This document shows positions 1-3,000 of a stretch of 27,246 bases of DNA, in pieces (position 1 is the first letter of the stretch; each line of letters begins with the position of its first letter). The position numbers were made by a program. Source of the stretch: Escherichia coli (GTDB lineage: Bacteria > Pseudomonadota > Gammaproteobacteria > Enterobacterales > Enterobacteriaceae); assembly GCF_003334255.1 (NCBI RefSeq), contig NZ_QOWU01000062.1. One strand, given 5' to 3'.

Positions 1-3000
1 TACTGCTTCAGAAAGTTCAGCAAAATCCATCTGGTAAAGTTCCATCAGATAAGTCAGCACGATATTCTGGTGAACGCTGCTGCCATACTTATCCGTCAGT
101 GTGATTGATTTACCAATCAGCTCAATCACATCACCACTGGTGCCGGACTTCATCGTGAACATCAGCGCCGCCATCCGGTGATAGTGTTCAATTTCATCAT
201 CGGTAAGCGTGCTGACATCCACCAGGCTGAATGGCTTTTGCTCGCCATAAATCTCGCGTCCGTACACCGGGTCATCCAGACAATCCACCCAGTTCATCGG
301 ATACGGATATGGCCGCTTTGCACCATGATAAAACAGCACCGGGATCACTACTGGCGCACACTTATGCTCTTCAATATGCTGCTCCATCACCGCCAGAATA
401 TAACGCATCATGCGCAGTGGGATAAATTTATCCGGCGAACTCTGGTGTTCTATTAAAGTATAAATGTACCCGTCCTTCCCGTCATTTGTCTTCATGCTGA
501 GCAAAACATCGCAGGCAGACTGACGTAAACTTTCTGCCACAAACGTCGTGGATTCAAGTTCTATTGTATCAAGATTACAGCGGGATTTCTGATACGGTGT
601 CAATACCTGTTCAAGAAAGTCCCTCGCGGCTGCAGGGTCCTTCAGTGTCTTCCTGAACGCCGCATCATGTATCAGGCTGGTTTTATTAACTTTTTCACTC
701 ACGGAACCTCCGGATAAAAAAGTGGGGCATAACGCCCCATGGTTGATGTTACATGGCATGAATAATTCGTCGTTCCATGCCATACCCGAGCCCCATAAAG
801 GGAATATCATCGTCAAAGTCCATTGGTGGTGCACCATTACCCGTTGATGTTGTCTGGGGTGCACGACCAGCCTGTCCGGCCGTCTTCGGCGGCTGTCCCC
901 AGCCCCCTTGTGCAGGTGCAGAAGCACCATTACCGGCAGTGCCCTGCTGACGCAGTGAACCCAGCATCTGCATGACACCATTCACTCCCACAACAACCTC
1001 AGTTGAATAACGGTCCACACCGTTCTGCTGGTCAAACCACTTACGGGTTTTCAGCTGGCCTTCGATATAGACCTTAGAGCCCTTACGAAGATACTCTCCG
1101 GCGATTTCTGCCAGTTTTCCATAAATAACAATGCGGTGCCATTCGGTCACTTCCTTCATTTCACCGCTCTGTTTATCCTTCCAGGTATCACTGGTCGCCA
1201 GTGACAAATTCGCCACTGCACCACCACCGTTAGGAAAGTACCTGACCTCCGGCTCCTGTCCCAGATGCCCAAGCAGGATGACTTTGTTTACGCCACGTGA
1301 AGCCATACTCCCCCCTCATTGCCAGTCATAACGCTGTGTCCAGGTACCATTTTTCAGCGCCTGCTCAGCCTGATCATGTTTTTTGAAATACTCTTCAGAT
1401 TCACGGGACACCGGCCCCTCAGAACACTGAGTGCCAATATAATATCCACGCGTACTTTTGAGGATTTCCAGGGGTAATGTATAGCCAGCCGCAGCTGCAA
1501 GAATGCCGTTTTGACGGTTCATATGTGTTTCCTTAAAGTTTGCAAAAACGATAAGAAAACAGACCTCCCTGATGGTGGTCTGTTTTCATCATCAGGGAGG
1601 CTGAGGGAAATACGATCAGAAAGAGTTTTCTGCGTATTGACGTTTAGTTGTGCCATTTTGCGGTGGCAGGGACTCCGCTTTTTCAGCCTTATAGACCTGC
1701 TCCTGGCCTATTTTAATCCAGTCCACCTTGATCAGGCGGGCTTTCAGACTGACGCGCTGCTCACCGGCATGCTCTCCCTTGTTCAGGGTGAAGATATCGG
1801 TGGCCAGGTTGCTTAACGCAAAGCCAAGCAAAACCTTACGGTCCTCATCCACTGCTTTCTGGCAGCGAGAGATCAGGGTGGTTGCATCTTTACCAACAAC
1901 CGTAACATCAAAACGCGTATAGGACGGATTGTCCGTTGGTCCACTCAGTGCGTTAATCACGCAGCAAAGGAACGAGCCATTCTGATGGTTAACCTGACGC
2001 ACATTACTGAGGTACCCCAGACCTTTTACGGTCAGATTGAAGTATTCAGCTTTTGCAGAAGAAGTATTTGTTGCAGACATGATGTGTTCTCCATGGATAA
2101 AAAAAGATATGACGGAGAACACCACCGCCCCTGACGGGTGTGATAGTTCCCGTCGGGGGGCCGGAATCAGCTGTATTTCCGGCTGTCTGTGCAGTTAAAC
2201 ATACCTCGATCACCATAACTGTGGTGATATCCGTTCCCAGAGGTTAAACGGATGTACCGCCATAAAGGCATCCTCTTTCAGGCTACGAGGATATTGCAAT
2301 CACCCGAAGGCGCTTCTCTCAGATTGCTGAAACATTGGCTGGCAGTCACCCGAAGGCGCTCCTCTCAGACTGCTGGAACATTGGCTGGTCGCCGGAGCGA
2401 CATGTGATCACCCGAAGGCGTCCTTCTCAGATCACCAGGACATTGGTTGGCTGCAAGGCAGCGGTTTAGCATGCTCATTTTTAAAACACCTGAACACAAA
2501 GTCAAGAACAAAACGTCATTAAATAATTATCTCACCGAGATGTTCACTCTTTGAAATGAGCATAAAAAAGGCGCTGAATCTTCAGCGCCGTCATGGGGTT
2601 ACCAGCCCTTCGGTCATCTCACTTGTCTCCGGGGATCACTCCCGGCGCGGTTTTCACGGAGTTCATACGCCTTGCAACTCAACCGGACGCTGGCCGTTGC
2701 GGATCAGAAACAAAACAACGCCGTTGTTTAATCGCTGCTCTGTTTCCCACTGATCATGGGGGTATACATCAAAGCGTATGCACTTTAACAAATAAAAAAA
2801 AGGAAGTAATCATCATCCACGCTTTTTAATTTTTCTGCCGCCGCGTTTACTGTGTGACGTTTTCTGCTCTGAAATAACGCCTTTACACTCCGGGTAACGC
2901 TGGCAACTCCAGAACTCTCCGTTCTTACCTTTCAGCTTCCGCATTCTGCCCTGGCAAAGTGGGCATTCCGGCGTCACTGGTGCCGTAATCTGCAATTGCT

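What the first reader, a model, noticed from the sequence alone, without database searches (positions are those of the whole stretch)
2300..2450. Three ~43-bp direct repeats plus flanking palindrome and hairpin in the long topB / DUF3577 spacer
Seen: the 730-bp non-coding gap between the topB stop and the next gene has a terminator-like hairpin after ~230 nt, then three imperfect 43-bp direct repeats (2300-2342, 2346-2388, 2408-2450), a near-palindrome (~2208-2227) and a GC-rich hairpin (~2128-2160). I found no ORF of any length in the 220 nt between the topB stop and the terminator. Inference: a regulatory region for the DUF3577/ssb operon, possibly with a small RNA or repeated operator sites.
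Basis: seen in the sequence. Interest (0 to 1): 0.45.

Follow-up and report, generated by a model that had tools for sequence, protein, structure and literature searches.

The report
STAXI pseudoknot RNA repeats in an ICE
The three repeats are units of an already catalogued structured RNA (the STAXI motif, Rfam RF01728) lying between the topoisomerase and ssb-type genes of an E. coli integrative conjugative element; the motif is well supported as an RNA, but nobody knows what it does.

Summary
The repeats match Rfam RF01728 (STAXI RNA) on the minus strand, 2402..2251, at 134 bits against a gathering score of 40.5. That is the sense strand of topB, the DUF3577/STY4534 gene and ssb. Weinberg et al. 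described STAXI in 2010 as a pseudoknot repeated 2-3 times near ssb, topoisomerase, antirestriction and integrase genes. Its function is still unknown.

The window holds three canonical 46-nt units, one degenerate unit, two small spacer hairpins and a covarying 3' hairpin. Across 77 distinct units from metagenomes, plasmids and this window, both the hairpin stem and the pseudoknot helix covary strongly. G.U pairs outnumber A.C 101 to 6. This supports an RNA read from the gene-sense strand and argues against double-stranded operator sites.

Beyond the 2010 description I found:
- a positionally conserved sigma-70-like promoter about 30 nt upstream of the arrays;
- an intrinsic terminator often just upstream of that promoter;
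- no enrichment of terminators downstream;
- strict co-orientation with the neighbouring genes.

The array is therefore most likely the promoter-proximal part of the STY4534-ssb leader. Novelty: already known.

The parts
2570..2589 (-). Intrinsic-terminator-like hairpin (8 pairs, 6 G-C) followed by TTTTTTAT. It would end the topB transcript upstream of the array.
   Evidence: A terminator lies within 200 nt upstream of the array promoter in 14 of 47 arrays, against 4 of 47 on the control strand.
2477..2505 (-). Sigma-70-like promoter: TTGACT (2505-2500), 17-nt spacer, AAAAAT (2482-2477). The expected transcription start is near 2470.
   Evidence: In 48 of 80 non-redundant arrays the best promoter-like match ends its -10 hexamer 26-38 nt before the first CCAA of the array.
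2450..2462 (-). Small 5' hairpin: GCUGC CUU GCAGC.
   Evidence: Centroid structure. The matching position in plasmid L002 holds GUCGC UUCG GCGAC.
2404..2449 (-). STAXI unit A. It is a canonical pseudoknot unit lying 5' of, and outside, the Rfam match.
   Evidence: Single-unit covariance model R1, 62.1 bits, E 1.4e-18.
2388..2402 (-). Spacer hairpin (GUCGC UCCG GCGAC). It matches the first helix of the Rfam STAXI model.
   Evidence: It explains the 62-nt spacing; spacings across arrays are bimodal at 45-48 and 60-66 nt.
2342..2387 (-). STAXI unit B (canonical).
   Evidence: R1 70.2 bits; Rfam alignment.
2296..2341 (-). STAXI unit C (canonical).
   Evidence: R1 58.3 bits; Rfam alignment.
2251..2295 (-). 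STAXI unit D (degenerate). It keeps the outer stem, the inner hairpin and a 6-bp pseudoknot helix (AUCCUC/GAGGAU), but lacks CCAAUG and the UUCG loop.
   Evidence: Rfam model positions 110-153. The MFE fold finds the AUCCUC/GAGGAU helix.
2229..2253 (-). Conserved 3' hairpin hpX (AUCCGUU...AACGGAU). Most of it lies beyond the Rfam model.
   Evidence: About 60 arrays are 90-100% paired, with CG<->UA exchanges at several pairs.
2209..2228 (-). It is conserved in a subset of arrays only.
   Evidence: shared with plasmid L002.
2128..2183 (-).
   Evidence: In 16 loci the first covaries (GCCGGAA/UUCCGGC versus GUCAGA/UCUGAC) and the second is conserved in sequence.
2085..2123 (-). Hairpin pairing GUGUUCUCC with GGAGAACAC. 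It would sequester the Shine-Dalgarno sequence of the STY4534-family gene.
   Evidence: Sequence and MFE fold. UUCUCC and GGAGA are kept in all 16 loci.
1616..2080 (-). Downstream gene: STY4534 family / DUF3577 (154 aa). It is followed by a 68-aa ORF (1316..1522) and ssb (749..1306).
2813..4840 (-). Upstream gene: DNA topoisomerase III (topB).

Best explanation
Identity and structure (shown). The repeats are a STAXI RNA array (Rfam RF01728) encoded on the minus strand of a SPI-7-type integrative conjugative element of E. coli. Each ~46-nt unit folds as an H-type pseudoknot. A 5-bp helix joins the 5' flank (G + 4 nt after the invariant CCAAU) to the 3' part of an internal loop. A 6-bp outer stem encloses an invariant UGAGA loop. 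A 3-bp inner stem (GCC/GGU) is capped by UUCG. The structure is selected, and it lies on the gene-sense strand.

Transcription (inferred from sequence and conserved position). The topB transcript ends at the terminator 2589..2570. A sigma-70 promoter at 2505..2477 then starts a new RNA. Its first ~250 nt are: small hairpin, unit A, hairpin, units B, C and D, then hairpin hpX. Transcription continues through a conserved structured leader with a Shine-Dalgarno-sequestering hairpin into the STY4534/DUF3577 - small ORF - ssb genes.

Mechanism (my best guess, about 0.4). The array acts at the RNA level, in cis, as a generic promoter-proximal module. It displays several copies of the same two invariant loops to a host-encoded factor. 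That factor would keep a long untranslated leader intact and transcribed (stability or anti-termination). The gene-proximal hairpins would set translation.

The overall confidence below refers to the identity, the RNA nature and the strand. It does not refer to the mechanism.
For: Identity. Rfam gathering hit STAXI, 134.2 bits (GA 40.5), E 3.7e-29, full model 1-153, minus strand. The published description matches: a pseudoknot repeated 2-3 times, UUCG loops, next to ssb, topoisomerase, antirestriction and integrase genes, Enterobacterales (PMC2864571).

Structure. On 77 distinct units, 96.1% of cells are paired. The pseudoknot helix is 99% paired, and 4 of its 5 pairs change on both sides. In the outer stem, 5 of 6 pairs change on both sides. 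The covariation score is 0.551 against 0.223 when shuffled (0 of 500 shuffles reach it) and at most 0.137 when the partners are slid.

Strand. G.U 101 against A.C 6 in paired cells. The G.U in the inner stem is kept in 72 of 77 units.

Promoter. In 48 of 80 arrays the best -35/-10 match sits 26-38 nt before the first unit. In the window it is TTGACT-17-AAAAAT. A terminator lies upstream in 14 of 47 arrays against 4 of 47 controls.

Read-through. Terminators within 400 nt downstream occur in 28 of 72 arrays against 24 of 72 on the control strand.

Co-orientation. Integrase-like genes 19 of 19, STY4534/DUF3577 18 of 18 (downstream, median 128 nt), topB 11 of 11 (upstream, median 276 nt).

The same 5' module heads different leaders: STAXI then EFASI then an integrase-like gene in six loci, and STAXI then hairpins and anti-SD then DUF3577 in 16 loci.

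Transcription in vivo. STAXI was detected downstream of topB by strand-specific RNA-seq in Pectobacterium (PMC4710047). It was also detected by RT-qPCR in STEC vesicles (PMC12370729).
Against: - No transcript ends are mapped for this element. The promoter and the read-through are consensus and position arguments.
- Rfam files STAXI as an sRNA gene, and it could be released by processing and act in trans.
- STAXI also occurs in a 3.1-kb rolling-circle plasmid with no DNA-processing operon downstream. A purely cis role for ssb-type genes cannot be the whole story.
- No partner factor is identified.
- Single-sequence folding energies are not unusual for the units (z between +0.2 and -1.7). All structural support is therefore comparative.
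- My unit alignment was collected with a pattern that fixes CCAATG, CTGNGA and CCTTNGGG. The invariance of those letters in A1 is partly by construction, although the Rfam consensus shows them too.
Confidence: 0.85

Rival explanations
1. Trans-acting stable RNA. The array is made from its own promoter, possibly trimmed after hairpin hpX. It would then work away from its locus as a multivalent sponge or decoy for a host protein, for example an RNA-binding regulator or a defence nuclease. Its effect would be independent of the gene downstream.
For: - Rfam and Weinberg class it as an sRNA gene.
- It has its own positioned promoter.
- Its downstream neighbours vary, and it occurs in a tiny Rep_1 plasmid alongside EFASI.
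- Several near-equivalent binding units per RNA.
- It was reported among the more abundant small RNAs in vesicles (PMC12370729).
- It is typically carried next to antirestriction-type genes.
Against: There is no conserved terminator after the array (28 of 72 against 24 of 72 on the control strand). It is strictly co-oriented with neighbours and sits at a short, fairly regular distance from the DUF3577 start. No partner is known, and PADLOC gives nothing for the adjacent proteins.
Confidence: 0.25
2. Single-stranded DNA element. When the ICE or plasmid is single-stranded during transfer or rolling-circle replication, the repeats fold. They would then serve as a priming signal or single-strand origin (ssi/sso), or as a single-strand promoter.
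For: Weinberg et al. raised this because of the DNA-handling neighbours ('DNA?' flag in their table). The array lies in the replication/processing module of the ICE. It also lies in the non-coding part of a 3.1-kb Rep_1 rolling-circle plasmid, upstream of the likely double-strand origin.
Against: - The C(UUCG)G loops and a conserved G.U pair (72 of 77) stabilise RNA, not DNA.
- The G.U excess of 101 to 6 fixes the structured strand as the gene-sense strand.
- In L002 that strand is antisense to rep. The pC194-like origin sequence CTTGTAT..AAGGGATAACT lies on the rep-sense strand (the comparison with pC194 is from memory). The displaced strand would therefore carry the complement, which has mismatches.
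- A double-strand-type promoter sits at a fixed distance upstream.
- An RNA is detected in vivo.
Confidence: 0.05
3. Double-stranded DNA sites. The direct repeats would be iterons or operators bound by an ICE regulator or by the STY4528/STY4534 'replication' proteins.
For: Three to four direct repeats lie in a long intergenic region of a replication module, beside an AT-rich stretch.
Against: - Differences between copies are compensatory in two helices, one of them a pseudoknot. Selection on duplex binding sites would not produce this.
- Strand-asymmetric G.U pairing.
- The same units occur next to unrelated genes (integrase-like genes, a Rep_1 plasmid) where these ICE proteins are absent.
- The 46/62-nt spacing follows the RNA domain boundaries.
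Confidence: 0.03
4. Type III toxin-antitoxin-like system. The tandem pseudoknot repeats would be an antitoxin RNA, like ToxI, cut into units by the small protein encoded downstream (DUF3577), which they neutralise.
For: The layout resembles ToxIN as I recall it: promoter, tandem 36-45-nt pseudoknot repeats, hairpins, then a ~155-aa protein of unknown function.
Against: - Units are only 72-91% alike, and each has drifted with its own compensatory changes. As I recall, type III antitoxin repeats are near-identical.
- There is no conserved terminator between repeats and gene.
- DUF3577 has no PADLOC hit and its only Pfam family is DUF3577.
- DUF3577 is described as part of a conserved gene cluster with parA, parB, topB and ssb in genetic islands of several proteobacteria (PMC3334931). 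Rfam lists STAXI only for Enterobacterales.
- Many arrays have no DUF3577 nearby.
Confidence: 0.02
5. Tandem riboswitch. Each pseudoknot would be an aptamer for a small molecule, and the downstream hairpins would be the expression platform.
For: The pseudoknots are compact, with invariant unpaired nucleotides. They are arranged in tandem in a 5' leader that ends in a Shine-Dalgarno-sequestering hairpin.
Against: The distance and sequence between the array and the next gene vary from tens to about 700 nt across contexts. No alternative pairing links a unit to the anti-SD hairpin. The neighbouring genes point to no metabolite. Weinberg et al. scored 'switch: n'.
Confidence: 0.04

Closest known systems
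STAXI RNA motif (Rfam RF01728; Weinberg et al. 2010, Genome Biol 11:R31)
   Same: Everything that defines it is present: a full-length covariance-model match, tandem pseudoknot units with UUCG loops, an Enterobacterales host, an intergenic position and topB/ssb neighbours.
   Different: This copy has one more canonical unit and small hairpin 5' of the Rfam model, and a covarying hairpin 3' of it. The positioned promoter, the upstream terminator and the lack of downstream terminators are points I did not find stated in the 2010 text.
EFASI RNA motif (Rfam RF02957)
   Same: It is a companion motif found a few hundred nt downstream of STAXI and upstream of integrase-like genes, on the same strand.
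   Different: It is absent from this window. Here the gene-proximal element is a different structured leader in front of DUF3577.
ToxI / type III antitoxin RNAs (recalled from the literature, not tested against a model)
   Same: Tandem direct repeats of about 36-45 nt, each folding into a pseudoknot, behind a promoter and in front of a small protein gene.
   Different: STAXI units are diverged from each other. No ToxN-like toxin, no conserved terminator and no evidence of processing were found.
put RNAs of phage HK022 (cis-acting processive antiterminator RNAs; recalled from the literature)
   Same: A structured RNA module at a fixed, promoter-proximal position in a mobile element. It heads co-oriented genes and has no element-encoded partner shared by all contexts, so a host partner is likely.
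   Different: There is no sequence or fold relationship, and nothing here tests antitermination. Terminators are not enriched downstream.
Single-strand initiation signals and single-strand promoters of plasmid leading regions (ssi, Frpo) and sso of rolling-circle plasmids (recalled from the literature)
   Same: Folded elements next to ssb and antirestriction genes of conjugative elements and in small rolling-circle plasmids.
   Different: Those act as DNA on the transferred or displaced strand. STAXI's conserved structure needs G.U pairs and UUCG loops, and it lies on the gene-sense strand.

Membership tests
STAXI RNA (RF01728) | Covariance-model score at or above the curated gathering score | tested here: met
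   134.2 bits against 40.5, E 3.7e-29, model 1-153 of 153, window 2402..2251 minus strand.
STAXI RNA (RF01728) | A pseudoknot unit repeated at least two, usually three times in tandem | tested here: met
   Three canonical units at 58-70 bits with the single-unit model plus one degenerate unit. Spacing is 46, 46 and 62 nt.
STAXI RNA (RF01728) | Pseudoknot pairing between the 5' flank and the internal loop, supported by covariation | tested here: met
   UGUCCU/AGGACG, UGUUCC/GGAGCG, UGUUUC/GAAGCG and AUCCUC/GAGGAU in units A-D. The helix is 99% paired, and 4 of 5 pairs change on both sides across 77 units.
STAXI RNA (RF01728) | UUCG tetraloop closing the inner stem | tested here: met
   GCC UUCG GGU in units A, B and C. 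Unit D has GCC UUUAU GGC.
STAXI RNA (RF01728) | Intergenic, in Enterobacterales, next to ssb / topoisomerase / antirestriction / integrase genes | tested here: met
   E. coli chromosome, SPI-7-type ICE, between topB and the STY4534-ssb genes.
Type III toxin-antitoxin (ToxIN-like) | Near-identical tandem repeats | tested here: not met
   72-91% identity between units, with compensatory differences.
Type III toxin-antitoxin (ToxIN-like) | ToxN/AbiQ-type endoribonuclease gene directly downstream | tested here: not met
   The downstream protein is DUF3577 / STY4534 family. It has no PADLOC hit and no ToxN Pfam hit.
Type III toxin-antitoxin (ToxIN-like) | Processing of the repeat RNA into units by the toxin | not testable with these tools
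   Needs RNA end mapping or in vitro cleavage.
Iterons / operator arrays (double-stranded DNA sites) | Conservation of the duplex sequence itself, on both strands alike | tested here: not met
   Variation is compensatory and strand-asymmetric.
Single-strand origin / ssi | Conserved fold on the strand that becomes single-stranded | tested here: inconclusive
   The fold is conserved on the gene-sense strand. In the Rep_1 plasmid L002 this is antisense to rep and probably not the displaced strand. The nick site was not identified with certainty: no CTTGATA was found. The transferred strand of the ICE is unknown.
Single-strand origin / ssi | Priming activity on single-stranded DNA | not testable with these tools
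   Needs an M13-type ssi assay.
Riboswitch | Aptamer coupled to an expression platform by mutually exclusive pairing | tested here: inconclusive
   An anti-SD hairpin exists, but I found no pairing that links it to a STAXI unit. The spacing to the gene varies widely between contexts.

The most novel reading that the evidence does not exclude
STAXI would be a generic, promoter-proximal, cis-acting RNA module of enterobacterial mobile elements. Its repeated pseudoknots would engage a host machine, most attractively the elongating RNA polymerase or the termination/decay machinery, much as HK022 put RNA does. This would carry transcription through long untranslated, structured leaders into DNA-processing operons (ssb, DUF3577, integrase-like, antirestriction genes). 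A host-encoded partner would explain why one motif serves ICEs, genomic islands, large plasmids and a 3-kb rolling-circle plasmid, yet is confined to Enterobacterales.
Probability: 0.12. Interest if true: 0.7.

Novelty: already known. Interest (0 to 1): 0.3.

Why it matters
As a finding, it is a rediscovery of a catalogued motif, so the window holds nothing new in kind.

The motif itself is still an orphan after 16 years. It is one of the better-supported structured RNAs without a function. It lies in the replication/processing modules of SPI-7-type ICEs and beside integrase and antirestriction genes of islands and plasmids that move virulence and resistance genes among enterobacteria.

Three results narrow what experiments need to ask. 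The arrays have a positioned promoter. They are often preceded, but not followed, by a terminator. They also head two different kinds of structured leader. The questions are whether the array acts in cis on the transcript it starts, and which host factor reads the invariant CCAAU and UGAGA loops.

Tried and rejected
1. Genome-contig scan. The corrected pattern was checked locally and then run on metagenome and viral contigs. About a third of the single-hit metagenome loci were chance matches and were dropped after nhmmer and covariance-model filtering.

2. Thermodynamic folding of single units, as RNA and DNA, on both strands. No strand or chemistry stands out (z from +0.4 to -2.0). The MFE often prefers a non-conserved GAAGG/CCUUC pairing. 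It was uninformative, so the structure rests on covariation.

3. Nature of DUF3577.
- AlphaFold2 with a 9-sequence alignment gave pLDDT 35, which is unusable.
- PDB sequence and profile searches gave nothing.
- hhalign against the ICE SSB gave nothing.
- PADLOC gave nothing.
Its fold and any RNA- or DNA-binding role stay open.

4. Rolling-circle nick site CTTGATA in plasmid L002: absent. Only a pC194-like CTTGTAT..AAGGGATAAC stretch was seen by eye. The strand argument against an sso role is therefore suggestive, not firm.

5. Phage collection (blastn): no STAXI-like DNA.

6. NCBIfam on ten neighbours of a two-copy metagenome locus: essentially no names.

7. E. coli conjugative-plasmid copies lie among IS elements and taught nothing.

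8. Literature. Only three papers in the library mention STAXI as an RNA. None gives a function.
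Full report
**What is in the sequence**

All genes around the finding are on the minus strand. A topoisomerase III gene ends at 2813. The next gene starts at 2080: STY4534 family / DUF3577, 154 aa, 1616..2080. A 68-aa ORF and ssb follow it.

They form a family of three 46-nt copies at 2296-2341, 2342-2387 (91%) and 2404-2449 (72%). TRF reports period 46. A unit pattern matches exactly these three places and none in 100 shuffles.

- the near-palindrome at 2209-2228;
- the GC-rich hairpin at 2128-2159;
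- the terminator-like hairpin at 2589..2570, about 230 nt after the topB stop.

Two small corrections apply. A mechanical 42-aa ORF does exist between the topB stop and the terminator. There are also two further hairpins, at 2160-2183 and 2229-2253.

**What it is**

A scan of the whole window against Rfam gives one hit above threshold. It is RF01728, STAXI RNA, on the minus strand at 2402..2251. The score is 134.2 bits against a gathering score of 40.5, E 3.7e-29, over the full model.

Weinberg et al. described STAXI in 2010. [quoted passage not shown] It lies near genes for single-stranded-DNA-binding proteins, topoisomerases, antirestriction proteins and integrases in Enterobacterales. They raised a single-stranded DNA role but favoured RNA because of the UUCG tetraloops. 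No function was assigned (PMC2864571).

The window is 100% identical to the chromosome of E. coli 2015C-3121. There the region is annotated as a SPI-7-type integrating conjugative element.

Only two later papers in the searchable library mention the RNA. One is a strand-specific RNA-seq study of Pectobacterium that detected it downstream of topB. The other is a study that detected it by RT-qPCR in STEC vesicles. Neither addresses function.

**Anatomy in the window**

Read 5' to 3' on the minus strand, the elements are:
- a small hairpin (2462-2450);
- unit A (2449-2404);
- a spacer hairpin (2402-2388, the first helix of the Rfam model);
- unit B (2387-2342);
- unit C (2341-2296);
- a degenerate unit D (2295-2251);
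- hairpin hpX (2253-2229) and hairpin hpY (2228-2209).

Each unit has the form CCAAU-[G NNNN]-N-(6-bp stem)-UGAGA-[NNNN C]-(GCC UUCG GGU)-(stem). The bracketed segments pair with each other to form an H-type pseudoknot.

**Is the structure real, and on which strand?**

I collected related sequences with a degenerate pattern from metagenome and viral contigs. I filtered them with nhmmer and with a covariance model of a single unit. This gave 143 significant unit matches and about 93 arrays.

On 77 distinct units, 96.1% of cells form standard pairs:
- The pseudoknot helix is 99% paired, and four of its five pairs change on both sides.
- Five of the six outer-stem pairs change on both sides.
- The covariation score is 0.551. 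Shuffles give 0.223 (none of 500 reach the observed value), and slid partners give at most 0.137.

G.U pairs outnumber A.C 101 to 6. One G.U in the inner stem is kept in 72 of 77 units. The conserved fold therefore exists only on the gene-sense strand and uses RNA-type pairing.

Hairpin hpX, which lies mostly beyond the Rfam model, also covaries across about 60 arrays.

Folding energies of single units are unremarkable on either strand and with either chemistry. The case rests on comparison.

**Transcription context**

In the window, a sigma-70-like promoter (TTGACT-17-AAAAAT, 2505..2477) lies between the terminator and the array. This arrangement is general:
- In 48 of 80 non-redundant arrays the best promoter-like match ends its -10 hexamer 26-38 nt before the first unit. 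Another 22 are offset by about one unit length, which probably reflects a first unit my regex missed.
- A terminator lies within 200 nt upstream of such promoters in 14 of 47 arrays, against 4 of 47 on the control strand.
- Terminators within 400 nt downstream are not enriched: 28 of 72 against 24 of 72.

The real flanking gene families are all co-oriented with the array:
- integrase-like genes (Pfam PF12835 + PF12834), 19 of 19;
- DUF3577 downstream, 18 of 18, at a median of 128 nt;
- topB upstream, 11 of 11.

Two recurrent layouts appear. One is the layout of this window. The other is STAXI, about 500 nt, EFASI (RF02957), an integrase-like gene, then often a second STAXI.

In the DUF3577 layout, the 170 nt after the array are themselves conserved. 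They hold a covarying hairpin, the sequence-conserved GC-rich hairpin, and a UUCUCC element that pairs with the Shine-Dalgarno sequence.

**How it most likely works**

Shown:
- the identity as STAXI;
- a selected pseudoknot fold on the sense strand;
- a multi-unit architecture;
- a conserved upstream promoter-like site;
- co-orientation with neighbouring genes.

Inferred: the array is the first ~250 nt of a transcript that runs into the STY4534-ssb genes.

My best guess for the mechanism (about 0.4) is that STAXI is a generic cis-acting 5' module. Its repeated invariant loops (CCAAU, UGAGA) would be read by a host-encoded factor. No element-encoded protein is common to all contexts, and the motif is confined to Enterobacterales. 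The module would protect or carry transcription through long untranslated leaders, and the gene-proximal structures would set translation.

The main rival (about 0.25) is a trans-acting stable RNA, sponge or decoy. The copy in a 3.1-kb Rep_1 rolling-circle plasmid favours it.

Less likely rivals:
- Single-stranded DNA function (about 0.05). The G.U/UUCG evidence and the strand in that plasmid argue against it.
- Double-stranded operators or iterons (about 0.03). Compensatory, strand-asymmetric variation argues against them.
- A type III antitoxin (about 0.02). The units are diverged, there is no ToxN-like gene, and DUF3577 belongs to a gene cluster conserved in genetic islands of several proteobacteria (PMC3334931).
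- A tandem riboswitch (about 0.04).

**Verdict**

The feature is an already known motif, so it is not novel. Its interest lies only in the fact that the motif's function is still open. The positional regularities found here make that question easier to test.

Noticed in passing
window 2085-2123 (minus strand), with 2128-2183: A perfect 9-bp hairpin (GUGUUCUCC / GGAGAACAC) would sequester the Shine-Dalgarno sequence of the STY4534/DUF3577 gene. Two further hairpins precede it. The whole ~170-nt leader is conserved in 16 loci, with covariation in the first hairpin. This suggests translational control of DUF3577, separate from STAXI.
   Followed up: partly
window 749-1306 (minus strand): The ICE-encoded SSB carries the canonical acidic tip ...DFDDDIPF, but continues for 15 more residues ([15 protein letters not shown]). 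The tip that normally must be C-terminal to bind partner proteins is therefore internal. A related E. coli ICE has an ssb gene of the same length (L137).
   Followed up: no
L002 (NZ_CP059920.1, 3140 bp) 2261-3123; also L003: A tiny rolling-circle plasmid whose only clear gene is a Rep_1 replication protein devotes about 860 bp to a STAXI array plus an EFASI RNA. Both are antisense to rep. This is odd cargo for such a small replicon and a possible handle on function.
   Followed up: partly
L102 4323-6697; L004, L046, L007, L011, L136, L139: A recurrent module: STAXI, about 500 nt, EFASI, an integrase-like gene (PF12834 + PF12835), then often a second STAXI about 2.2 kb after the first, all on one strand. 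The stretch between STAXI and EFASI is also conserved. It produces similar spurious opposite-strand ORFs (...TQVTPHSFKLH...) in several loci.
   Followed up: partly
window 2229-2253 (minus strand): Hairpin hpX directly after the last STAXI unit covaries across about 60 arrays. It lies almost entirely outside the Rfam RF01728 model, so the family model may be truncated at its 3' end. Likewise, an extra unit and hairpin lie 5' of the model here and in L002 and L011.
   Followed up: yes
window 2492-2518 and 2526-2555: A short direct repeat (minus strand TGACGTTTTG / TTGACTTTGTG; TRF period 14 x 1.9) overlaps the -35 of the array promoter. A second promoter-like site (TTCAAA-18-GATAAT with an extended TG) lies just after the terminator. 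These may be regulator sites or tandem promoters.
   Followed up: no
window 1616-2080 (minus strand): DUF3577 proteins end in a conserved ...Y(A/D)(E/P)(N/D)SF after a low-complexity linker. This resembles the linker and tip of SSB proteins. The predicted secondary structure is mostly beta with one helix, but the AlphaFold model was unusable (pLDDT 35) and no PDB or SSB similarity was detectable.
   Followed up: partly
window 2590-2812: The ~220 nt between the topB stop and its terminator are shared at full length by only 4 of 5426 complete E. coli genomes. The STAXI part is found in about 650 genomes. The 3' region of topB is therefore a variable segment of unknown content. It holds imperfect inverted repeats at 2702-2740 and 2660-2674/2770-2784.
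   Followed up: no
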